Positions 1,017 through 34,680 are shown, counted from the whole stretch's first letter. The stretch is 63,981 nt of DNA, filler included, from Choristocarpus tenellus KU-1152 (GCA_964200185.2; 15 parts of 15 records of this genome joined end to end with filler, not necessarily neighbours in it); one strand, 5' to 3'. Numbers and translations are program-made. The notes: a model not told the origin generated them from the letters alone.

Positions 1017-1082
1017 GAAGACCAAGGGCATCCATACCGCCACTGCCATCGTGTAAGATAGTGGTGTTCAACTCCTAACTTC

Positions 1083-1114
1083 AACCCTAACCCTAACCCT
1101 AACCCTAACCCTAA
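1083..1114 (-). repeat. Interstitial telomeric repeat (CCCTAA)5
   Basis: AACCCTAACCCTAACCCTAACCCTAACCCTAA read directly. Confidence 0.9.
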
Positions 1115-3516: not shown

Positions 3517-4568
3517 TAAATTAATGTTTCTTACATTACTTTTGAAGTAATTTTTTTCATTGGATGTTGAACCCTCTAACCGAACCACAACCTGTCCTCT
3601 TTTCGCCCTCTATAACGTTAACACAAAAATGTCTTACTGGACCTCGACCACTGGAACTCTTTCCACCATTTGTGGAAATCTCTATACATACTTTCTTTTA
3701 ACCTCTCTGATGTGATTCACTCCACCAAATATTATCACTAACAAGAGCCAGCAATGAACCAACCATACACCTGCAAACAGTAGGCATGTAAGCAATTCAT
3801 AGTCACAAGGTGGTGTAATGGCTCATACGCGCTTATCACGTTCTGATGGCATCATCACTGGTGTGAAACAGGGTCAGACCAAATCCAGGTCAACCTCTGC
3901 GAGGGGCTACTCCGTTCTTGAACATCGCGCATGGTCAGGCAAGACCACCCACCTCATACACGGGAAGGTGCTCCTTTTGTGAACTCTCCTTCAGTATGCA
4001 CATGGATCGAGTGGTCAGGTTTTTCACCAAACCTGATCTATATAGCCTTAAGCGTTGTCTAGACCCTCACCCAGACGAATGGAGGCGACCACAAGGTAGT
4101 CGGATGACAGAAAGACTAGGACGGACCACCGCCAAACAGTGGACAGTAGAGTAGGGGGAAGTTTGTTCTTCCAAATATATGGCGCTGCCTGATGTGTTGG
4201 AGGAAGGAACTCGAAAGACTACAGAGCAGGCCTACACGCAACGGGTGTGTGGTCCCTCGCAACCATTCGATCTCAGGCATCATCAACTGTATTGGTATTA
4301 TAATGCTCCAATATCCACCATTATCCACCATTCTCATAAATATAATAATGTTAAGAATGGGACACGAGGCAAAGTTCACACGGGGGCAGTCAAGGGTCAA
4401 AGTAGCCATTACCTGAGATATTTGCCCTTAAAAAACACTACTACTACATAGTAGGTACTAAGGACTAATTTTGTAATACTAGTTATTGTTAAGTGAAAAC
4501 AGAAAAAGTACAAACACCTAATTCAAGAGGGGGAGCACAAGAAAATCAAGTGCCATTGAAAATGTATA

Positions 4569-6299
4569 CTTCCTCCAATTGGAAATAAAAGTAATAGAAC
4601 TTTTGCAAGCTCTGTTCTCTCCCAGGAACAGCCCAAGTGATAAACCTTCTAGGCGAGACTTAGTTTTCATATAGAATCGAGGAGTGCAAAGTTTGAGACG
4701 GTGGGCTGTCATGACTGTGGAGGATCACCAGCACAAAGTCGACCAAGTCGCATTTGAGAGGATTCGTAAACTTCGCGAAACTGTCAAAGTGGATGTTTAT
4801 TGGGGTGCCTGGGACAAAGGCCCCCCATCATTTAAGGAGGTGACAGCGGCCATCGTGGAGAACTTCGGAATTTCCTGAATCACTATGTTCCGTCATCTGG
4901 AAGAGTATGATAGCCAGATCGAACGTGGTGAATGCTGGACCTTGTGTGACGTTGTTAGGAGTGATGCGGTCACCATACAAGTATCCTTGACGTTTGGGAT
5001 GTTCCATCGGTACACCTCACATCCTTCCACAAATGGGTAACCAAAGCTGGGGTCTTCCCTTGCGACTCAAAGTATCAAAAAGGGTAGGGCCGTGTCCGTT
5101 TGGGGTCCAAAACCCAATGTTGCGATTTTGATATATCTTTGGCTATCGTATTTGTTAGGAAGTGTCAATACCCTTGCTCCGGACACATCTTTCAATGTCA
5201 TACACATTTTAGGTAACTGTGTTCAAACAGAAAACCGAACAAGGACATAAAAAACCGTGGGAAACCAAGCCCCAAACAGACAAACAGGGCAAAACTGTTA
5301 CCCAATAAATTTTTGTTGGGTCTTCCCTTGTGGGATCTATGCAAATGCAAGAAAGTGAAGGTCAAGTGGTGGATTAAGCCAGTCCTCTCAGACCAGCAGA
5401 AAGTTAACAGGGTGGGTTTCGTCATCAGTCACATACACAGGAGGGGAGAAAATGGGGGATTAGAGGGCAATCTATATGACTGGGCACATGTGAACGAGAA
5501 GTGGTTTACACCCTCAGAGCTGGGCAAGGTGTTTTGATTATTCTTTTTTCTCTGGTGGCCTCGCCACCACTTAGACCTCGAGTTAACTCTACACTAAGTG
5601 TATTTGACACCCAACTGGATACAATATATCCACAGTAAAAACATCAACAAAAGCCTTCTTCACAACGTGACAAGCCTCTACACAGAGCATGAATCTCTTC
5701 CTTTAATGTACCAAAGAATACCCTACATCACTGTACCAGAAAACCTCTGACTGTGCAAAGCATGTCACTAGGTTCATCAGCATGAATCCAACAGTGTTTC
5801 ATTGCACTACGACACTCCTTCACCAGAACCAACCTGCCACCGTACAAGAGCACAATTCGTTCAATCCCAGGTTTCAACAAGGGGTGACCAACACAGAGAA
5901 TCTGGTGGAGGCCACAATGGAGGCGTTCGATGTGTACCCACGGGAGACACTAGAGCACGTCTGGCAGAGCCTAATCGAAGTCTGAGGTGAAGTGTTTAGG
6001 TCCAAGGGTGACAACGTCTTCAAAATTCCCCATCTTAGCAAGGAAAGGCTGAGAAGGCGACCAAGCTCCCCCAAATGCCCTAATGGATGCAGTGAAATAC
6101 CATGCTGGAATGGAGTTTGGAGATCTTCAGGGGAAGAATCATTGATATGTGCAGGCTGCCCCATTTTGCTTGAGATTTTGATGGGCAAAATTGTAGTGTC
6201 TATGCAATACACACAAAAAAATATGAACATGGGAAAAAAATCTTGCGTCTTCATCTTGGCTGCAAAGGTTATGGTACATTTATTTACAAACGGAGAAAG
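4569..6299 (+). mobile_element. Decayed DD39D plant-type mariner, copy 1 (MITE inserted, catalytic core replaced)
   Basis: TA|CTTCCTCC...GGAGAAAG|TA termini; peptides DWAHVNEKWF and KGDNVFKIPHLSKE; collinear with the copy at 14046-15809. Confidence 0.85.
5064..5322 (+). mobile_element. MITE family 1 (subtype b) nested in the mariner
   Basis: Matches the family consensus (TCAAAGTATC...GGGAAACCAAGCCCCAAACAGACAAACAGGGC) and interrupts the transposase frame. Confidence 0.85.
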
Positions 6300-6660
6300 T
6301 AAATACGTATTTGTGTTAAAAAATGTTTTTCTATGTGATGAATCCCAGCCTAACTGACAAAGAAAGTCAGACGAAGACCCACAAAAGGATAGATCCCCAC
6401 AGAAAAGTGTTGTTGCATCATTTTGCCATGGTCTTGACCTTAGCCCTTCATAACGACGAATCGAGTGATTCAGCATGCCTGAAGACCTTACACAAAAACG
6501 CCATAGTGTCTTTTTTTTGTCCCACATGCCAGTACTCCATACAGTACCTGCCCCGATTTTGTTCACCCATGGGTATGCCCTAAAAAAGCAGCACAGAATC
6601 TATATGGTATAATATCGATTTTGTAGTAATTAGGTTTAGGGTTAGCTGGGAGATCAATCG

Positions 6661-10553: not shown

Positions 10554-10848
10554 TCCCCAAAGCTTTTAAGAGGGTAGGGACGTGTCCGTTAAGGGTCATA
10601 AATCCAATGTTGCGATTTTGATGTAATTTTGGCTATTGTGTTTGTTAGCAAGTGTCAATATCCTTGTTCCAGACACACCATTCATAATTGTGTACATTTT
10701 ACCTATTCCGAAACATTTCGGAGTAGCTAACTGTGTTCACACAGAAAACCGAAAAAGGGCAAAAGAACCACTCGGGAAGCCAAGCCCCAAACGGACAAAC
10801 AAACAGAACAAACAGGGGTAAATTCTACCCTCTTAAATGCTTTGGGTC
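10554..10848 (+). mobile_element. MITE family 1 (subtype b)
   Basis: TIRs CCCAAAGCTTTTAAGAGGGTAG / CTACCCTCTTAAATGCTTTGGG plus the internal family consensus. Confidence 0.85.
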
Positions 10849-11978: not shown

Positions 11979-12250
11979 GAGTAAAAGTATCTTAGGGTTA
12001 GGGTAGATCCACGTCCGTTTGGGGGTCAAAATCCAATGTTGCGATTTTGATGTAATTTTGGCTATGGTGTTTGTTAGGAAGTGTCAATATCCATCTTCCG
12101 GGCGCATTTTTTCATAACGTATACATTTTACCCTAACCCTAACTCCTAGACATTTTGGAGTAGGAAAATGTCATAAAAGGAACCCATGGGAAGCCAAGCC
12201 CAAAATGGACAAACAGGGCAATACTCGTACCCTCTAAGATACTTTCACTC
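11979..12250 (+). mobile_element. MITE family 1, full length, with two telomeric-repeat insertions
   Basis: GAGTAAAAGTATCTTAG...CTAAGATACTTTCACTC, flanked by AGTT on both sides. Confidence 0.9.
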
Positions 12251-13322: not shown

Positions 13323-14045
13323 NNNNNNNNNNNNNNNNNNNNNNNNNNNNNNNNNNNNNNNNNNNNTTAATTAATTAANNNNNNNNNNNNNNNNNNNNNN
13401 NNNNNNNNNNNNNNNNNNNNNNCCCTAACCCTAACCCCCCCCCCTTTTCACTCATGTAGCTGTACTAAAGAGAAGCCCGTTGCAGACCAACGTGATTCTA
13501 ACTCCTATATATTTATTACTAAACATTAAAAAAAAACATAGCCGAATGAGGACAATTTTATGGGACAAGCTGCATTATGTTTCAAGCAACATGGCTGCAG
13601 AGAAACAACTGGAAAGGTTGAAGTGAACAGTAATATTCGGAGTGTTTGAGTCCAATCACAATTGAACAAAAAGCAAGTGATGTACTCGATATACCTAATC
13701 CTCACTCACAGCTGACAAAAATACAGCACACACTGGTTCCCATCCAATGCCCAGTCAGCAGCAAGGAGGAACCTCTGAAGGTAGATATTTTTGATGAGCT
13801 ACATCTGAGTTATTCTGCATTATTTTCATTAGGCATTCACCGCACTAGCTCTCAACTGGAAAAAAAAAGTAGGGGGGAACCTTAACCAGATGCAGCAACC
13901 TTGATGGGTATACAAGAACAGGTACTACTACTTTTCATAGGTATACCCTAAGATACTTCTACACACTGGGAGCAACAGGTAAGTCCTCACGAAAGTAAGT
14001 CATTAAACCATACATTCCAGGAATCATCTACTATATTAATACACA

Positions 14046-15809
14046 CTTCCTCTGTTTGGAATTAAATGTAACATAACTTTTGCAGCCCTGATCAAGAAGC
14101 GTAGTTTTTATTCACATGTTCATATTTTATGGGTGTATTGTGCAGACACTAAAAGGTTGCCCACCAAAACCTCAAGCAAAATGGGGCAGCCTAAACCTAT
14201 CTATGATTCTGCAGCCAAAGCTCTCCAAAACTCCATTCCAGCACAGTATTTTGCCACATCCACCAGGGCATTTGGGGGGACCTCGCTCGTCTTCTCAGCC
14301 TTTTCCTTGCTAAGATGGGGAGTTTTGAAGAGGTTGTCACCCTCGGATCCTGGCATTTCACCAAAGATTGTGTGAAGAGGCTCTGCCTGATGCACTCTAG
14401 CGTCTCCTGGTGGTACACACTAAACGCCTCCATTGTGACCTCCACCAGCTTCTCTGTGTTGGTCACCCATCCTTCAGTTGCTGGATGGAATGAAAGAGTC
14501 CCAAGTCGTTGATGTTGAGGTCACATGAGTTGGCTGGCTGGCTTTCTATGACAATGTCGTCCCCCGCCGCCTCCTTGATTGCCTCGATGATCCCTCCTTG
14601 GTGTGTGACTTTGCCCTGTCCTGCTGCATGAAGATGATGTGTCCTTCTGGCCTAGGCACACGGGCCTTGATTGCCAGGATGATATCCTCCATCATGAGCT
14701 TCTTATACCTCTCCACACCCACCGTGGCGGGCACAAGCACCTTGCTGCCCTTGGGGCATTGTTTGCTGGAGCACTGAGTGACCTTAGTGTCCATGATTGG
14801 CCAGATTCCAATTCTCCCACTGAACCACATCCCATTGGAGAGCTTTCTGGGGCGGGCCACAGCTGCAAGGAACATCACCTTCATGACGTAATTCTTATTC
14901 TTTGCCCGTGGGGGTATGGGGGGTTTCTCAGTGGAGTGAAGATACACACCTTGCCCATCTTTGAGGATGTAAAACCACTTCTCATCCACATGCACCCAAT
15001 CACTTAGATCGTCCACTACTACCCCACTTCCCCCCCTCTCCTGTGTGTGTGGCTGATGAAGAAACCCACCCTGTCGACTTCCTGCTACTGCGAGAGGACT
15101 GGTTTAATCCACCGCTTGAACTCCTTCACATTATCGCACTTGCACAGATCTCACAACTACGCAACGGAAACCCTAGCTCTGGCCGCCCATTTGTGGAAGG
15201 ATCTTCAGTGTACCGATGGTAAATCCCAAACATCAAAGGTACTTGTATATTGTCCACATTGCCCCTTGCCATGTCGTACAAGGTCCATGCATTCACCCCA
15301 TGTCATCTGTCTGTCATACTCCTTCAGATGACGGAACACAGGTGATTCGGGAAATTCTGAAGTCCTTCACAATGGATGCCACCATCCTCCAAGGAACCTG
15401 AGTCTTGTGCCCTCTCACCTCCAGGCATCGTGCCACGCTGTTCTTCATCAAGGTGGTGGACCCATAACCCTGGACAGACTTCTGGCCCTAAGAATTGGGA
15501 CCGACGGGCGATGACGGGATGAGCAAGCCGCTCAAACTACGGGGGCCTTTGTCCTAGGCATCCCAATGATCACCCGCTATGACATTGTGATGAGGTTTTT
15601 GAACCCTGTCAAGTGCGACTTGGTTGACTTTACACTGGTGGTCCTTCACGGTCTTGACAGGTCACCATCTACAACTTTCAACACCTCCCAATCTATTTGA
15701 GAACTAAATCTCATCCAGAGTTAATAGAGAGGGTTTATCACGTGGGTTGCTCCCAGGCGAGAACAGAGCTTGCGGAAGTTATGTTACATCTAATTCCAAA
15801 CAGAGGAAG
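14046..15809 (-). mobile_element. Near full-length decayed DD39D plant-type mariner (Soymar/Osmar-like), copy 2
   Basis: TIRs CTTCCTCTGTTTGGAATTA(A/G)ATGTAACATAACTT at both ends. Motifs WVHVDEKWFY, KVMFLAAVARPR, GRIGIWP, QQDRAKSH and QPANSCDLNINDLGLF. Frameshifts and stops are present. Confidence 0.93.
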
Positions 15810-16133
15810 TAATAAATAAAAAACAACAATAAGCAGCAACCACACCATCACCACGAAAACACTCCTGTCCAAAAATTGCTCAACAACCCCCAAAAAAATC
15901 ATAACACACCACAATCAGTAAGACCTTAGAACCCAATAAAAAAACCGAGAGCTTCTAACAACCTACCACATTCTGGAGTAATCAAAACAGCAAAGTAATC
16001 AGTGAAATATTTTGGGGGGGGAGGGGGGGAAGGGGGGGAGGACATACAAATAATACCTTACAAACAAAAAACAGTCACATCCTACCAACTGCAACCTTCA
16101 ACGACATGACTGCACTTGTAACATGAAACGCAC

Positions 16134-16322
16134 CTTGGTCTCCTGACCCTTTTTCGGGGCCAGTAGGAGGGTGGAAAAGTCCACCGGCAGGCCATATCGC
16201 ATTACACTCTCCACAAAAGCACGCACGACCTTGATGTGCATCCATGCAACAAACGCCTCCCCAAAGTGGGCACGGCACCACCGGACCATGCCTGTGTGCA
16301 GCTGCTGCGTTTCTAGTTGAAG
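16134..16322 (-). CDS. ATP6V1C: V-type ATPase subunit C, internal exon (63 codons)
   Basis: RWCRAHFGEAFVAWMHIKVVRAFVESVMRYGLP is the conserved VMA5/subunit C block, bounded by ccag| and |gtgcgt. Confidence 0.92.
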
Positions 16323-16450
16323 CTGGTGAGGAAGGGGGTGACGGGGGGGGNNNNNNNNNNNNNNNNNNNNNNNNNNNNNNNNNNNNNNNNNNNNTTAATT
16401 AATTAANNNNNNNNNNNNNNNNNNNNNNNNNNNNNNNNNNNNNNNNNNNN

Positions 16451-16726
16451 CTAAACCGAAACATTTTGGAGTCGGAAAATGGCATAAAAAACCCCCATGG
16501 GAAGCCAAGCCCCACAAAGGTATACATTTTACCTAATCCGAAACATTTTGGAGTCGGAAAATGTCATAAAAAACCCCATGGGAAGCCAAGCCTCACAAAT
16601 GTATACATTTTACCAAATCCGAAACATTTTGGAGTAGGTAAATGTCATAAAAAAAACCCATGGGAAGCCAAGCCCCACAAATGGACAAACAGGGAAAAAT
16701 TCGTACCCTCTAAGATAGTTTCACTC
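16451..16726 (+). mobile_element. MITE family 1, 3' part, with an internal 81-bp unit triplicated
   Basis: CCGAAACATTTTGGAGT recurs at 16457, 16538 and 16619; ends TACCCTCTAAGATAGTTTCACTC. Confidence 0.85.
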
Positions 16727-16744
16727 ATTCTATACCATATTCAC

Positions 16745-18784
16745 CTAGATCTGGTAGCTGAAGTCCGTCGCCACCGTCGCAATGAAAATGGTCACCTCAT
16801 CGCGTCCCATCGCCTTTCCCTGAGGATGGACGTCCTCAGCAAAACATTGCTGCGTCTCCGTTGGGACGAGGGTCTGCCCTAAGGCTTCCAGCAGGCAGGA
16901 AGGGCCTATCATGCGTTCTTGAGCGAGAGACGTGATTACCTGCAGCGTCATGTGCGTATATGTGACAGTCCAACAATGTGGCAGTGAAGTGGGTTAGCCA
17001 TATGATAAGGTTTTGTCATATATGTATGGGTTATTCCGGCGTTGGTTAAAGATGTTGTGGTGTACTGCAGCACTTTTTTTTTTTTCGTGCGGGGATGGAG
17101 GACATTATGACGTACCGACGATCACAGCAAAGTCTTGGGGACTCGGGATTTCCATCGGTGGTGTGAGTAACTGCATGCACTCTGTTGGCAACGTGTAAAC
17201 ATCTACAAGGAAACATCACCAGTACAATTGCACGCCCGAGACCTATCCATGGGAACGTAGGCAAACAAAAAGTTGGAAAGCAATGGAAAAAAAAGGCCAG
17301 CACATCCTTCTTACCTTCCACTTACCGTCCTTGTAGGCTTGGCCAAAGGACGTGTCCATCTTCTCTTTCACCTCGTCCTTTGACGCCGGGTTGGACACGA
17401 ACACCTCCACCCTCCTGCTCCGTTCAGGGGCCGCCTCCACCACATTGTGCCTCTCTACGCTGTAGGAGACGACGGTGTCCCCAGCATTCGTGTACCTACC
17501 GTGGGAGGGCAGTTCGTAAATTAGCCCTAACGTGGTATATTGTATTGCGCACGGATTAATCATTTCGCAGTGTATGAGTCACGTTCCGATACAGGGCAAC
17601 AGGCTCTTGGTGCGTTTTGACGCTTAACGTACCGATTCGGGAAACAAACTAGTGGGATGGATTAACGCCCCTGAACCGTCACCCAGCTCGTTCTGTTACT
17701 GTTTAACAATGTCCTACACCTTCTACAAAAAAAAAATCAATGCTTCTGTGAAGAAGGATGCGTGTGACGTTATTAACGAACCTGTTAACGAGGAAGTAGA
17801 GGGCCCTCATGGGGATGTCCGAGGCAGCACCTTTGTATTCGACGTCCGTCATGGTTTGGAGTACCGGAGGAGATGCATCACATCCGTGGCCAAAGATGTC
17901 GTCGACGGTGACTCGCTTATTGCATGTGAATATTGTCCCATCGTAGTGCGTGAGAAGAATAATGTCCTGACAACCTTTGAGATGGTTATCTGTGCCTAAT
18001 TGAGGGCGCCCCCCCCTTCTCGTCTTGTATATTAGGGTTGGGGGATAATCCTCCACAATCAAGCCCACCTTCGACGCAGTTAGAGCCTCTGAATGAAGAG
18101 AAGGCGGGAGGGAGCGCGTGGGTCCGGCATGCGTCAAACTTGACAGTGATATCACACAAGTAGTTATCGTAGGGATTCATGAAATCTCATACCACTAACA
18201 TTATAATAGTACAATGAGTGTGGAACGCAAGGCAAATAACCAATGCAAAAATTGCAAACAATAGGAGATGAAGTAATAATAGGAGTAAAAATATGGCAAA
18301 TAAATGTGGTGAAGACGAGTAACGCCAGCATGCGATTCGTGGACAATGAAACAAAGAAGTGCGTAGTTGCAAGTGAAAAAAAAAGCAAGCAACACAAAAG
18401 GAAGTAGAAGGTACGAAGGACAACATGGGGAAAGTGAAAAACATAGGAATACACACGACCTAATCTGCATCTCCTGAACGGTCGCACAATATTCGATTGG
18501 CACACGGACGAAATGATAACGGCCATGGTGGATTGCAATAGTCTCCCGCAATACACCCCGTATTTCAGCGCTGGCGAACTCTGCAACTCACCGTGTAGGC
18601 GGTGTACTTGCGCGGTCCATGGGGGGGGAACAGTGAGCGCGATGGTGCCCTGAGGATGCATCTTAGGCCGCAAGCACTGAAGCATCTCGCGCAGGTGTGT
18701 GTTGGTCGCCTCTTCGTCGATGAGGAGTCTTGGCTCGTCGGCAATGGACACTATGGCGAGCTTTGGCGCGTTCGGAAGGCGAAA
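16745..18784 (-). CDS. Multi-exon gene (or young pseudogene) for a degenerate beta-class N6/N4 DNA methyltransferase-like protein
   Basis: Exons ~18784-18460, ~18160 (or 17995)-17782, 17495-17315 and 16939-16745 join through phase-compatible GT-AG introns. The spliced peptide IPMRALYFLVNR|YTNAGDTVV...RR...KEKM fits the C-terminal pattern of N6_N4_Mtase. The 5' boundaries are uncertain. Confidence 0.55.
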
Positions 18785-19223
18785 TCACCAAGTTTGTCTA
18801 AGGGTACCGTGAGGTCGAGAGGGCGAAGGTCGTGTAGTGCAGTGTTCTCACTCCTACTTAGACATCATGACACACGACACAGCAGACAGACAGCACGACA
18901 AGAAGGACGGCATAGTAAGCTACGGTGCAGGAAATATTTTCATTAAGTGAGTGTCTGACAATATTTCCACGGCATCTCCAAAATGTCAGGCCGTACCCTC
19001 CACAACACCAGACTCATCAGATACATCTCGTGGAAGGAGGGTAGACGTCAAACACTAAGTTCGATGGCGCATGAAACCCTCCAAAAAAGCGACACATCCA
19101 AGGCATAAAGGATGAGCAATCCACATGATGTACAAGCAGCCAAGACCTACGTGCAAACCAACGCGAAAACAAACACACAGAGACGACTTGTGTGTCTGTA
19201 TAATGTGCAACAACGCCGAGACC

Positions 19224-19579
19224 CACATGCACTTCTCCATGTCGGCCGTTTCGCTGCGTGAGGGGGGAGGTAAAAGGCTTTGCGTCGTGGGTGACCCGCC
19301 CACGCTCCTTGCGCAAGCCTTACCCTTACCCTTGCCCCTGCCCCGACCCGCCGCTTCGTTCCCCGCCGATCCAGACCCTTCACTGCCCTCCTGTGCCATG
19401 GGGCAATTGATACATAATCGATCCTTGTGCCTTTCGTCGCCTACAATCTCCGCGTAGGCACATTCGCCCATATGCGTGATTGAGCACCTTGGGCATGAAT
19501 ACCTGTCGCGCGTGTCATCGAACGAGAGCATTAAACAGACAGGATAGTATTTTTCCAAATCATTAATTGGGCTCAACAA
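19224..19579 (-). CDS. Probable exon with a PHD-like Cys/His finger
   Basis: (Y)PVC...CPRC-x3-H-x3-C...CINC followed by a Gly/Lys-rich linker. The first Cys position reads Tyr and the exon limits are approximate. Confidence 0.45.
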
Positions 19580-19973
19580 TTAATCGCGGGAATCCACGGT
19601 TACGAAGGATCACGAAATTGGTGGCGCAAAACAGCACGAAGTAGTACAGGTGAGATACAACAGTCGGTGATTTACATGCATTAACACACAATCGGACAGT
19701 GGCAAATAAAGAGACGTGGGGGTAGCGACCGCAGCGCTGCACACAGAGGGACCCNNNNNNNNNNNNNNNNNNNNNNNNNNNNNNNNNNNNNNNNNNNNTT
19801 AATTAATTAANNNNNNNNNNNNNNNNNNNNNNNNNNNNNNNNNNNNNNNNNNNNCACCCCCCCCCCAAATACTTTGACCCTGCTGGCAGATATCTTATAC
19901 ACAATAATTTGCTCACTACTAAACCTCGTCGATCAGCACAACATCCCAGGACCAATCGGTCTGCTACGTAGCG

Positions 19974-25240: not shown

Positions 25241-25247
25241 TGTGTAG

Positions 25248-27323
25248 ATTGTATGAATGGACACTCTTTCTGTGGGTTGTGCTTGGAGCAGTGGATGGGC
25301 GAGGGTGGTGGGCGAGTTTGTCCATCCTGCATGCAACCCATTGAAAAGGCCTTACCTGTCAGACACCTTGATCAGGCGAGTTTTTTTTTTGTTGGTCGGG
25401 AGAAGGTTTTTGAGTGGCGTTTCTCTGAGTTGGGCACTGCTGTTATAGTTTTAGCTCAAACTATACTTAATTTTTTTTTTCTTTATCTTTTACTTCACTA
25501 TTCCAGCTTATGTAATTGCCAGAGCAGATAAAGCAGAAGTTGTTCAAATAGCGTTAGATCCAACAAAAGTACATGTATTAATGTAATTAAGAGATTATCA
25601 TGATACTTATTTGCTAATAGGTAGATTGATTGACTCAAAAATATTTGATCGCATAGATAAGACAAATGGGACTGCAACAGAATATTTTAAACTTAAGAAA
25701 CAATTTTCAAGCACGCAAATGAAGTTCTCTATGGTCTTTTATATTATTTAGTCTGATTCTACTAATGGTAGCAATAGTTTGGGGAAGGAGTGTTGCAATA
25801 TAGATACGTATGTTTGTGTTCCATGTAATAGTTTGTAACTCATAATAAAGAATGCCATTTTTGACAGCTTGAAGAAGTAAACAGTTGGATCTTGTGGACT
25901 GTTTCACTTCTTCTCTTGGGGTTGAACAAATATATCGCGGCTCACCTTTTCTGCCATGTGCGCTTAATTCTTGCTTGAAAATCGCTTTTAGTGTGTGGCA
26001 AGGGACTGTTGATGACATCTCAGTGTTGCTTATGCCATTGTGTACTGACTGACTCCCTATTTTTCACTGGTGCAAATTGGGGGTTTCCTGGATTAGTGGG
26101 TGGCCTTGTTGTAAAGCAAAGCTCTATTTTTTGTTGCGCCGGTCCGTAACTATATCAGGGAGGCATTCCTGTTAATCTTGGTTTTGTTTTGGACAACGTC
26201 TGTTGCATTTTTTTTTTTCAGTTGGCTTGGTTCTCCCTCTCACCGCGATCAGACCTCTTGTTGTTGAACTTGAAACTGTGTTGACACCTCTCCCCTATGT
26301 GATGCTCCGTGGCACTCTGTGGTGCTGGATGTCTATGTGCTGCGTTGTATGCGGATTTCCTCTCTCAGGATATTGTTAGTATGTGGATTGTGGACTATTG
26401 TGACCTCCTTTCGATCATCATCCTCTTACTTAGCAGTTTACTTCTGGTTCAATGAGGTTGTACTAGGAGTTGACACGATATTGAATTATTTCAGTTGTGT
26501 TGACCCAGTCTCCACCCGTACTGATGTTTCCTTCTGCCTGAGCAGTCCTGGTTAGGTACATGGTGAAGGACTCACACGCACACACACAACATAACACAAC
26601 ACGACACAACACAACACAACACAACACACACGTGGGCAGTCAGACACATGCACACACCAATTAACCCTGTTGGCTGAGATTAGCCCTCTTGCATGCATCT
26701 CAATGTTCATTCCTCGTCTTGCTTGCAATTTCCGTCTGTGCTCTGGTGCGCATCTAACCATGCACGAACAACAATCAATTTGTTGATACCAGGCCATTGA
26801 GAAGAAGGTCAGTGCTGCAGCTGATGGTGAGGAGCGAGACAATTGGTTCCTTCGAAAAAAGGACTGGGAAGCCACTGTCAGGGCTAGGAGAGGAAGTGGG
26901 ACCAAGGTGAAGGTCCCCACCCACACCAGGGCCCGTGATTCTGTTGGAATTGACAGTGGTGTCATGTCGAGTGATGTGTTGGGTTTGGACAATGTTGGGG
27001 AGGCGGAAGCGTCGGTGGGGGCACGGGAGGTGGATTTTAGACCGCTTGCTGGTGGCTTCGCTCGACGTTTGTTTGGATGGGGTGACCAAAGCATGGGAGG
27101 CGGGGGGGGGGTGGCTGTGGCGACTGAGAGTGAAGAAAAGGAGGACCATGTAGAGTTTGAGGAGGAGGAGGAGGAGGGAGGGGGGGGGAGGGAGAGGGAC
27201 AACGAGTCAATGCCGTTTGTGCACCAGGTTGCCCTGGCTGTTGCTGTGGCTTTGCTGGGAGCTATCTATGCAGTGAGGAGTGTCAATGGTGGGAGGTGGA
27301 ATGGAGGGCGTTGGTTCCATTAG
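25248..27323 (+). CDS. RING-HC finger protein with a C-terminal transmembrane helix (exons 25248-25375 and 26793-27323; 5' exons not located)
   Basis: CMNGHSFCGLC...W...CPSC splices in phase 0 to AIEKKV..., then an acidic run, hydrophobic VALAVAVALLGAIYAV and a stop codon. Confidence 0.75.
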
Positions 27324-28136: not shown

Positions 28137-28191
28137 ATTGGATTTTGACCCCCAAATGGACGCGACTCTACCCTCTTAGATACTTTGACTC
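28137..28191 (-). mobile_element. MITE family 1 terminus at a contig start
   Basis: CTCTACCCTCTTAGATACTTTGACTC. Confidence 0.85.
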
Positions 28192-34420: not shown

Positions 34421-34680
34421 GAGTCAAAGTATCTTAGAGGTTAGAGCCGCGTCCATTTTGGGGCCAAAATCCAATGTTGCAATTTAGATAAGATTTGGCT
34501 ATCATGTTCGTTAGGAGAAGTCAATATCCTTGTTCTGGACACTCCTTTTCATAGCGTGTACATTTTACCTACTCCAAACCCATTATTGAGTAGGTAATTT
34601 GTCATTAAATACCTGTGGGAACCCAAGCCCAAAATAGACAAACAGAGAAGAAACTCGTACCCTCTAAGATACTTTCAATC
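34421..34680 (+). mobile_element. MITE family 1, full length
   Basis: GAGTCAAAGTATCTTAGAGG...CCTCTAAGATACTTTCAATC. Confidence 0.9.

What the first reader, a model, noticed from the sequence alone, without database searches (positions are those of the whole stretch)
16745..18784. Intron-containing gene for a bacterial-type beta-class DNA amino-methyltransferase fold with degenerate catalytic motifs
Seen: splicing aacag|gttcgt (17782) to ggtag|g (17495) gives ASDIPMRALYFLVNRYTNAGDTVVSYSVERHNVVEAAPERSRRVEVFVSNPASKDEVKEKM. This aligns without gaps to the remembered N6_N4_Mtase C-terminal pattern PTQKP..L..LI..YTNEGDTVLD.F.GSGTT..A....GRR.IG.E.......AKERI. Upstream exons supply the other blocks in beta-class order: LPNAPKLAIVS (motif IV position), LREMLQCLRPKMHPQGTIAL (R.LKP.G-like) and GL...TLIYK...QDIILL (IIW.K...E.IL-like). 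The DPPY/SPPY and FxGxG residues are absent, so it is predicted to be inactive. Established: beta-class enzymes have been co-opted in eukaryotes (bdelloid N4CMT with a chromodomain), and inactive MTase partners exist (METTL14). Inference: a domesticated or transposon-borne pseudo-methyltransferase, perhaps part of an undescribed 4mC/6mA chromatin system. The contig also looks more CpG-rich than its neighbours.
Basis: partly seen in the sequence, partly recalled or inferred. Interest (0 to 1): 0.78.

Follow-up and report, generated by a model that had tools for sequence, protein, structure and literature searches.

The report
Brown algal transposon pseudo-methyltransferase gene
This is a broken copy of a spliced, many-copy brown-seaweed gene whose protein is predicted to have the shape of a bacterial DNA-methylating enzyme but lacks its usual catalytic motifs, so it likely rides in a giant jumping gene and likely binds that element's own DNA rather than marking it, a design already noted in the seaweed Ectocarpus.

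Summary
The gene is real. Five minus-strand exons (19502-16745) are joined by four GT-AG introns, all seen joined in contigs of run X4. This copy is decaying: a 1-nt frameshift near 18772, 18 of 21 listed coding differences non-synonymous, and a MITE end 18 nt past the stop. All named homologues are brown algal (Choristocarpus 85%, Ectocarpus, Pylaiella, Scytosiphon), with several copies per genome. The Atlas model of a Pylaiella homologue matches N6_N4_Mtase clusters in 10 of 10 rows. Sequence searches alone do not detect the fold. Motif IV, motif I and the motif II acid are replaced in every member that spans them, so the family is predicted inactive. Longer Ectocarpus homologues carry a weakly supported ParB-like N-terminus. 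This matches the published ParB-methyltransferase cargo of the giant transposon Sola1-1_Ec32 (PMC12477816), whose sequence I could not read. Best reading: transposon cargo, a pseudo-enzyme that likely binds its own element, and not a host 4mC/6mA system. No transposase or element end lies on this contig. New points: family-wide motif loss, a Cys/His finger, and undepleted CpG in a CpG-poor window.

The parts
19227..19502 (-). First exon held on this contig: Cys/His-rich finger-like segment (C-x2-C-x3-H-x3-C-x15-C-x2-C, PHD-like by eye only) followed by a Gly/Lys-rich linker. The gene probably continues upstream of the contig start (19754).
   Evidence: Donor at 19226 joined in X4. The 5' edge is inferred from an AG acceptor and X4 cover, with no join seen. 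The linker aligns to Ectocarpus P0040/P0044. No PHD hit.
18854..19226 (-). Intron, 373 nt, GT-AG
   Evidence: X4 joint 18852>19226, CT..AC; absent from X1-X3
18592..18853 (-). Exon: start of the methyltransferase-like domain, with the motif IV position (KLAIVSIADE here, KLV[LF]LNVGA[FY] in Ectocarpales) and the 'LRPKMHPQGTIAL' block. This copy has a 1-nt frameshift near 18772.
   Evidence: Translation. One extra base at this place in contigs of all four runs (table 4). Colinear with P0040 across the break.
18089..18591 (-). Intron, 503 nt, GT-AG
   Evidence: X4 joints with net skip 503
17782..18088 (-). Exon: central strands and variable (target-recognition-like) region; holds the family's most conserved residues
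   Evidence: 33 homologues at E<=0.001 among 1.84 billion representatives; near-invariant H, T-x-N-x-x-V, G, P, R
17496..17781 (-).
   Evidence: Five X4 contigs join across it; same junction in gene models P0004, P0038, P0040, P0028
17315..17495 (-). Exon: SAM-binding-like half with degenerate motif I (SYSVERHN in place of DPFxGSGT) and no motif II acid
   Evidence: Ungapped register with beta-class enzymes; hhalign
16940..17314 (-). Intron, 375 nt, GT-AG
   Evidence: X4 loose end at 16941 (3 contigs) continues exactly into exon 17315. One further contig gives a net skip of 374, one base off (coordinates).
16745..16939 (-). Last exon, 64 codons plus TAG, function unknown
   Evidence: Open in the joined frame; covered by X4 contigs
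16451..16726 (.). Separate MITE-like element: 23-bp terminal inverted repeat starting GAG at 16726, 18 nt past the stop codon, facing away from the gene, followed by an 82-bp tandem array (2.9 copies) cut by the contig end. Most likely an insertion, not part of the gene.
   Evidence: About 10 related stretches in the window. TIR pairs in four complete copies. Hundreds of unlike flanks behind 16726 in X1-X4 (table 7). Tandem array.

Best explanation
This is a frameshifted copy of a spliced, multicopy brown-algal gene, likely the accessory gene of a giant cut-and-paste transposon of the Sola1-1_Ec32 type, whose product is predicted to have a beta-class DNA amino-methyltransferase fold, is predicted to be catalytically dead, and likely works as a DNA-binding module for the element's own sequence. 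Shown: the exon structure, the frameshift, many divergent copies, brown-algal homologues, and loss of the canonical motifs in every member that spans them. Predicted: the fold (from homologue models) and an N-terminal ParB-like domain (in Ectocarpus homologues only; that part is off this contig). Inferred: the carrier is a Sola-like element. The ParB/HTH part would bind repeated sites in the element, and the dead methyltransferase domain would dimerise and grip DNA through its conserved variable-region residues. That would help the element stay active or assemble for transposition without writing 4mC or 6mA. Step estimates: fold about 0.9, mobile-element cargo about 0.85, inactive about 0.8, self-binding role about 0.6.
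For: Splicing. Multicopy: in the gene-only lay, 469 contigs of X4 and 121 of X3 at 80-100% identity with about 730 variable places in 3023 bases. Six models from one Ectocarpus strain and three from C. tenellus. One 90%-identity cluster of 131 members on long contigs. Deeply split subfamilies within one genus. Decay: frameshift; 18 of 21 listed coding differences non-synonymous (only 47 of about 700 differences were visible); longer end branch (0.17) than the Choristocarpus sister rows (0.03-0.05). Fold: Atlas model of P0047, 10 of 10 rows are N6_N4_Mtase clusters, TM by target 0.69-0.74 in 8 of 10. Foldseek ranks 1-10 are all beta-class DNA methyltransferases. hhalign score 25.9 against at most 20.9 in 30 shuffles. 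Inactivity: 0 of 97 family sequences hold [DSN]PP[YFW]; 7 span motif IV and 8 span motif I, all degenerate, with Glu at the first motif I glycine in 8 of 8. ParB: Atlas rows for P0017 20-330 are mostly ParB-family, the first a phage ParB-methylase cluster. P0044 39-68 aligns to the ParB GxxR motif, score 22.0 against at most 21.4 in 40 shuffles. Overlapping Ectocarpus models add up to about 1181 aa, against 1104 aa for the published Sola1-1_Ec32 protein.
Against: No transposase, TIR or TSD of the carrier lies on this 3.3-kb contig, and no flanking DNA of any homologue was seen. Identity with the Sola1-1_Ec32 protein was not tested, because the FASTA supplements cannot be read. The fold evidence rests on low-confidence models of a homologue: own model pLDDT 59, best Foldseek E 0.024, beta-class Z only 3.1-4.0 and below unrelated Rossmann fragments at 4.8. 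All ParB rows are under the Atlas bar and Pfam finds no ParB. Ectocarpales members keep N-x-x-x-Y/F at motif IV, which might retain some function. No palindrome array is present in the held part. The runs are from one study and none is on record as RNA.
Confidence: 0.55

Rival explanations
1. The family is an active but atypical 4mC/6mA methyltransferase (N-V-G-A-Y/F as a variant motif IV) that marks the element's own DNA, as proposed in print for the Sola1-1_Ec32 gene; only this copy is dead.
For: Ectocarpales members keep Asn and an aromatic residue around the motif IV position. The published prediction is an active N4/N6 enzyme. Red-algal Plavaka elements carry a PF01555 gene.
Against: Both prolines of motif IV, the FxGxG loop and the motif II acid are replaced in all members that span them (7 and 8 sequences). 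The window's family has no aromatic there.
Confidence: 0.12
2. The same pseudo-enzyme, but carried by another mobile element (KDZ, EnSpm/Plavaka, Mutator, a non-autonomous giant element, or an endogenous virus) rather than by a Sola1 element.
For: No carrier sequence was seen. Such accessory genes move between transposon superfamilies in red algae. Ectocarpus has giant KDZ and EnSpm elements with accessory genes. Two deep subfamilies exist.
Against: The only ParB plus N4/N6-methyltransferase gene in print for brown algae among my searches is in Sola1-1_Ec32. Four long spliceosomal introns are unlike recent viral DNA (general knowledge).
Confidence: 0.15
3. A domesticated host chromatin gene, or the inactive partner (METTL14-like) of an active paralogue in a host 4mC/6mA system.
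For: Spliced forms are abundant in X4. The family is conserved from Discosporangiales to Ectocarpales. A Cys/His finger is fused in this lineage. There is precedent in bdelloid N4CMT and METTL14.
Against: Many divergent copies per genome, and a decaying copy here. No motif-retaining paralogue among 97 sequences, though most are single exons that do not span the motifs. 4mC/6mA calls were at background in the sister taxon Schizocladia.
Confidence: 0.1
4. The methyltransferase likeness is superficial and the protein has another fold.
For: No Pfam, PHROG, NCBIfam or PDB sequence hit. Weak structure scores with my own model.
Against: Atlas structure rows meet the bar for N6_N4_Mtase over 205-235 residues. 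Three further weak tests name the same family. Blocks occur in beta-class order.
Confidence: 0.06

Closest known systems
Accessory gene of the 21.5-kb Sola1-1_Ec32 transposon of Ectocarpus (PMC12477816; passages, part 1 of section 5 and supplement table rows seen; figures and FASTA supplements not seen)
   Same: Brown alga. ParB-like plus N4/N6 DNA methyltransferase architecture (ParB seen here only in Ectocarpus homologues, weakly). Similar length (about 1181 aa from overlapping models against 1104 aa). Transcribed, in a repeated family.
   Different: The paper predicts a 4mC- or 6mA-producing enzyme and calls the gene Ectocarpus-specific in its table. The family studied here has lost the motifs, reaches the Discosporangiales, and in this lineage has a Cys/His finger. 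Sequence identity with that protein and linkage to a Sola transposase are untested. The adjacent MITE has GAG termini, not AACCG.
Plavaka accessory genes PAG2 (PF01555 + SET) and PAG3 (ParB + 2OG oxygenase) of red algae (10.1101/2025.02.11.637652; section 8 and passages read)
   Same: Giant DNA transposon cargo with bacterial-type methylase and ParB modules, proposed to act on its own element.
   Different: There the two modules are on separate genes with SET or oxygenase partners, and the methylase is Pfam-detectable. Here there is no Pfam hit and no SET.
Beta-class DNA amino-methyltransferases (M.RsrI, M.MboIIA, M.PvuII, CcrM, YhdJ; PF01555)
   Same: Predicted fold and block order (motif IV, variable region, motif I), with ungapped register around motif I.
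   Different: Motifs IV, I and II are replaced. Spliceosomal introns. Sequence identity 10-17% in structural alignments.
Bdelloid N4CMT (PMC8885841; passages read)
   Same: Intron-containing eukaryotic gene with a permuted N6_N4_Mtase domain fused to a further module.
   Different: N4CMT is an active host enzyme present as an allelic pair, with a chromodomain. This family is multicopy and motif-degenerate.
Inactive N6A-methyltransferase domain of DIRS1 retrotransposons, and METTL14 (PMC4738411; passages read)
   Same: A dead methyltransferase domain retained by a mobile element, or as a partner subunit.
   Different: The DIRS1 domain is PCIF1-like, in a retroelement polyprotein. METTL14 is an MT-A70 single-copy host protein.

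Membership tests
Beta-class DNA amino-methyltransferase (PF01555) | Permuted Rossmann fold, catalytic half before SAM-binding half | tested here: met
   On the homologue P0047: Atlas structure rows 10 of 10 N6_N4_Mtase clusters, TM by target 0.44-0.74. Weak agreement from my own model and hhalign. The window's model aligns to P0040 at 31% over 347 aa.
Beta-class DNA amino-methyltransferase (PF01555) | Motif IV [DSN]PP[YFW] | tested here: not met
   0 of 97 family sequences; the 7 that span the position read NVGA[FY] or SIADE
Beta-class DNA amino-methyltransferase (PF01555) | Motif I (D/E)xFxGxG and motif II acidic residue for SAM binding | tested here: not met
   8 of 8 spanning sequences have [GS][AV]E in place of the loop. 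In the 6 that reach motif II the acid is replaced by Val.
Beta-class DNA amino-methyltransferase (PF01555) | Pfam profile match above cut-off | tested here: not met
   No PF01555 hit for any exon or for the 33+3+3 homologues scanned; P0047 itself was not scanned against Pfam
Beta-class DNA amino-methyltransferase (PF01555) | SAM-dependent methyl transfer to A-N6 or C-N4 | not testable with these tools
   Needs purified protein
Sola1-1_Ec32-type transposon accessory gene | N-terminal ParB-like domain | tested here: inconclusive
   Off this contig. In Ectocarpus homologues: Atlas rows ParB-family but under the bar; GxxR motif alignment at 22.0 against at most 21.4 in 40 shuffles; no Pfam hit; model of P0044 unusable.
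Sola1-1_Ec32-type transposon accessory gene | C-terminal N4/N6 methyltransferase-type domain | tested here: met
   Fold as above, though motif-degenerate
Sola1-1_Ec32-type transposon accessory gene | Lies inside a TIR-bounded element with a Sola transposase on the opposite strand and a 4-bp TSD | not testable with these tools
   The contig ends at 19754 and in a MITE at 16451. No genome is held, and no flanked locus was found.
Sola1-1_Ec32-type transposon accessory gene | Sequence homology to the published 1104-aa protein | not testable with these tools
   FASTA supplements cannot be read
Sola1-1_Ec32-type transposon accessory gene | Dispersed multicopy family, transcribed | tested here: met
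   The spliced joins are in one run (X4) whose kind is not on record, and dispersal in the window's own genome is inferred from contig diversity.
Domesticated host methyltransferase (N4CMT-like) | Single-copy gene with intact frame and catalytic motifs | tested here: not met
   Frameshift and decay in this copy, many copies, motifs absent
PHD finger (exon 19227-19502) | C4HC3 zinc ligands with PHD spacing | tested here: inconclusive
   Six Cys/His ligands are present, the His is one place early, and the first pair is not on this exon. No Pfam or PDB hit.

The most novel reading that the evidence does not exclude
Brown-algal giant transposons turned a phage-type ParB-methyltransferase into a catalytically dead, self-binding shield. 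In the Discosporangiales, the one brown-algal order reported to keep DNMT1, it gained a chromatin-reading Cys/His finger and protects the element from host CpG methylation. That is why the element, introns included, keeps CpG o/e near 1 in a window at 0.54. This would be a VANDAL-like anti-silencing system built from a pseudo-methylase, and the published 'methylating' Sola1 cargo would in fact be a pseudo-enzyme.
Probability: 0.12. Interest if true: 0.78.

Novelty: new variant of a known kind. Interest (0 to 1): 0.4.

Why it matters
The only paper my searches found on this cargo in brown algae treats it as a possible writer of 4mC or 6mA on its own transposon. If the Ectocarpus homologues found here are that gene, it is more likely a pseudo-enzyme. 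That changes the experiment to run (DNA binding and protection, not methylation) and argues against hidden 4mC/6mA in brown algae from this source. The family spans lineages that kept and lost DNMT1, so it offers a natural test of whether transposon-encoded pseudo-methylases counter host CpG methylation. This particular copy is broken and is of no functional interest by itself.

Tried and rejected
No whole genome is held. No RNA holder was listed by the run search; X4 is read as RNA-like only from its GT-AG joins and exon-high cover. Single exons gave no Pfam or PDB hit and no longer homologue by word search. No flanked loci were found in viral or metagenome contigs or phage records; this is no evidence of absence. 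A 12-sequence beta-class HMM gave E 0.04-0.17, not significant; that control set was chosen by requiring the motifs, so its 36 of 36 motif count is by construction. The AlphaFold model of P0044 (pLDDT 31.5) was unusable and was not searched. The PPR hits of P0017 were rejected: they come from a duplicated exon in that gene model matched to designer repeat proteins. An extra exon at 17116-17202 and the alternative donor at 17325 were rejected because X4 joins 17315 directly to 16939. A candidate exon at the contig start (19715-19754) has little X4 cover and no join, so it is left open. The adjacent repeat was considered as a solo LTR or as the carrier's own end. It was rejected as an LTR because it has terminal inverted repeats. 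It is thought unlikely to be the carrier's end because its TIR faces away from the gene and has hundreds of unlike flanks; whether other gene copies share it was not resolved. A palindrome array (lead from earlier findings) was not found in 16728-19754: counts fell within the range of 40 shuffles in all 5 settings. CpG decay in this copy: 10 of 24 listed A>G/T>C sites against 30% by chance, not clearly enriched. An early guess of an ichthyosporean host was dropped once the homologues were named. The Sola superfamily paper is not held; GAG termini as a Sola2 trait is recalled, and the 4-bp AT-rich TSD is from PMC3627910 passages.

Full report
Setting. The window is a chain of short contigs joined by N-padded linkers. 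The finding lies on contig 16451-19754. Other contigs carry fragments of ordinary eukaryotic genes such as V-ATPase C and NatA auxiliary subunit. No whole genome is held. The nearest named homologues of the gene are Choristocarpus tenellus gene models (85% identity over 60 residues). The host is therefore likely a Discosporangiales brown alga; this is an inference from homology.

Observation. The gene is on the minus strand, with exons 19502-19227, 18853-18592, 18088-17782, 17495-17315 and 16939-16745 (stop). The introns are GT-AG and 373, 503, 286 and 375 nt long. Four public runs of one study hold the stretch; none is on record as RNA. In run X4 only, contigs join across all four introns, and cover is far higher over exons than introns. 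I read X4 as spliced transcripts of the family; processed DNA copies in that sample are not excluded. One of the joins at the last intron is one base off, while three loose ends fit it exactly. The 17782/17495 junction is also read through in independent gene models (P0004, P0038, P0028, P0040). The CpG remark holds: o/e 0.96 over the gene (exons 0.90, introns 1.00) against 0.54 +/- 0.10, maximum 0.84, in 218 overlapping 3-kb windows elsewhere.

A multicopy family, and a dying copy. With the gene alone as target, 469 contigs of X4 and 121 of X3 lay on it at 80-100% identity, introns included, with about 730 variable places. Depth is no copy number and I do not use it as one. A full search with the central exon gave 33 homologues, and two more searches added others. 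All named ones are brown algal: C. tenellus (3 models), Ectocarpus sp. CCAP 1310/34 (6), Ectocarpus sp. 12, Pylaiella littoralis (2 divergent) and Scytosiphon promiscuus. Most hits are unnamed, so the range is not bounded. One 90% cluster has 131 members; the 15 listed lie on contigs of 0.1-2.2 Mb. A tree of 52 rows on 96 columns (3 of 55 rows dropped as too short) shows two deep subfamilies, both with Ectocarpus members. Among the 47 differences that the tool listed between this copy and the reads (of about 700), 21 are coding and 18 of these are non-synonymous. The copy also has a longer end branch than its sister rows. A MITE-like element with a 23-bp TIR ends 18 nt past the stop. It has about ten relatives in the window and hundreds of different flanks in the runs, so it is most likely an independent insertion.

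Fold. Sequence methods do not see the family: Pfam, PHROGs, NCBIfam and PDB searches found no methyltransferase, and a small beta-class HMM gave E 0.04. Profile-profile alignment of 55 family rows against 12 beta-class enzymes scored 25.9 (pairwise P 0.008), above all 30 shuffles (maximum 20.9). With the window's model as master it aligned 155 columns in order. The strongest evidence is structural and comes from the Pylaiella homologue P0047: the Atlas's own model gives 10 of 10 rows in N6_N4_Mtase clusters, all over the naming bar, 205-235 residues aligned, TM by target 0.69-0.74 in eight. Atlas features for P0040 name the same family at 0.85, a lead only. My own AlphaFold model was poor (pLDDT 59). 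Even so, Foldseek ranks 1-10 were all beta-class DNA methyltransferases, but with best E 0.024, and the wide VIA search gave them only Z 3.1-4.0, below short unrelated Rossmann matches. I put the fold at about 0.9.

Catalysis. None of 97 family sequences holds [DSN]PP[YFW]. Most are single exons, and only 7 span motif IV. They read NVGA[FY] (Ectocarpales) or SIADE (this copy; the reads differ from it at the Asp codon). The motif I region aligns without gaps: DPFxGSGT is replaced by LFGAEHNT, SYS[AV]ERHN or GIGVETTT, with Glu at the first glycine in 8 of 8, and the motif II acid is Val in the 6 that reach it. By established knowledge of SAM-dependent amino-methyltransferases, these residues bind SAM and the flipped base, so the family is predicted inactive. 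Meanwhile residues of the central variable region are nearly invariant, which suggests selection for a non-catalytic role such as dimerisation and DNA binding (inference).

Architecture. Longer Ectocarpus models extend N-terminally by about 500 residues. For P0017 20-330 the Atlas structure rows are mostly ParB-family, the first a phage ParB-methylase cluster, all under the bar. P0044 39-68 aligns with the ParB GxxR motif at a score just above 40 shuffles. This is suggestive, not proven, and that part of the gene is not on this contig. Where Ectocarpus has an acidic linker, the window's family has a Cys/His segment that resembles the second half of a PHD finger by eye but has no database support.

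Comparison with print. PMC12477816 (passages, part of section 5, table rows) describes a 1104-aa ParB-like plus N4/N6 DNA methyltransferase gene opposite the transposase in the 21.5-kb Sola1-1_Ec32 element (1989 annotated fragments, 2 intact) and suggests it binds and modifies its own element. Overlapping Ectocarpus models of the family found here sum to about 1181 aa. They are likely that gene or close kin, but the FASTA supplements could not be read, so this is untested. Red-algal Plavaka elements carry related modules on separate genes (section 8 of 10.1101/2025.02.11.637652). PMC4738411 (passages) lists ParB-HTH methylase fusions in chlorophytes and chytrids and inactive methylase domains in DIRS1. 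Searches for transposon + ParB + N4-methylcytosine + algae, and for ParB + Sola + DNA methyltransferase + transposon, returned only PMC12477816. In the passages seen it does not mention motif loss; figures were not seen. DNMT1 is reported in Discosporangium and lost in later brown algae (10.1101/2024.02.19.579948, passages; PMC12459048, passages). A later preprint found no MET1 in the brown algae it surveyed and background-level 4mC/6mA in Schizocladia (10.1101/2025.09.16.676480, passages; bioRxiv supplements are closed). Unreviewed notes from this scan report the same Sola design in plants and an animal, some with dead methylases and palindrome arrays. I treat them as leads, and found no such array in the held part of this gene.

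Mechanism and verdict. Most likely the intact gene is cargo of a giant Sola-type transposon. Its ParB/HTH part would bind sites in the element, and the dead methyltransferase domain would add a dimeric DNA-gripping surface, helping the element remain expressed or assemble for transposition. Shown: exon structure, copies, decay and motif loss. Predicted: fold and ParB. Inferred: carrier and function (overall 0.55). The undepleted CpG fits protection from host methylation, but fits a recently active or recently arrived element equally well. It is a new variant of a known kind: real, already anticipated in print as a design, with family-wide motif loss as the useful new point. Interest 0.4.

Noticed in passing
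window 5064-5303, 10558-10801, 11979-12250, 28137-28191, 34421-34680, 42783-43041, 47003-47282, 49402-49636, 51892-51941, 61118-61186 and 16451-16726: A roughly 260-bp MITE family with 23-bp TIRs beginning GAG, about one copy per 6 kb of the window. Of four complete copies the 4-bp flanks match 4/4, 3/4, 3/4 and 2/4; Sola2-like by recalled criteria. Two copies carry inserted telomere-like (TTAGGG) units.
   Followed up: partly
window 16451-16683: The MITE-like end next to the gene continues into an 82-bp tandem array (2.9 copies, 92% match) derived from the MITE's subterminal sequence, instead of the usual MITE body.
   Followed up: partly
window 16725/17604 (run X1 joint): One contig joins the MITE end to intron sequence of the gene family at 17604, suggesting a MITE insertion into another copy or an internal deletion derivative.
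   Followed up: no
window 17387-17497 (run X3): In organism B a piece of the SAM-half exon sits within unrelated long flanks on both sides, a possible captured exon fragment.
   Followed up: no
window 43945-44259: A 315-bp near-perfect foldback: 113-nt arms at 83% plus inner 32-nt arms; probably another MITE family.
   Followed up: no
window 4567-6300 and 14045-15811: A longer repeat present twice in inverted orientation at 74-81% identity, with ORFs of 241 and 185 aa without Pfam hits; one copy is interrupted by the MITE.
   Followed up: no
window 41340-41717 (-): Weak CENP-B N-terminal DNA-binding domain match (E 0.0017, under cut-off), possibly a pogo/Tc1 transposase fragment.
   Followed up: no
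window 16101-16349 (-), 60533-60883 (-), 45398-45745 (+), 25241-25528 (+), 38625-38924 (-): Host gene exons: V-ATPase subunit C, NatA auxiliary subunit, CBS domain, RING finger, EF-hand.
   Followed up: no
whole window: CpG is depleted (o/e 0.39-0.69) with TpG/CpA excess on 15 of 16 segments, as expected for a genome with present or recent CpG methylation, which is unusual among brown algae.
   Followed up: partly
window 1069-1114: Interstitial telomere-like AACCCT repeats.
   Followed up: no
proteins P0017, P0045: Two Ectocarpus gene models contain duplicated exon blocks, either mis-annotation or internal tandem duplication in element copies; this produced a false PPR hit.
   Followed up: partly
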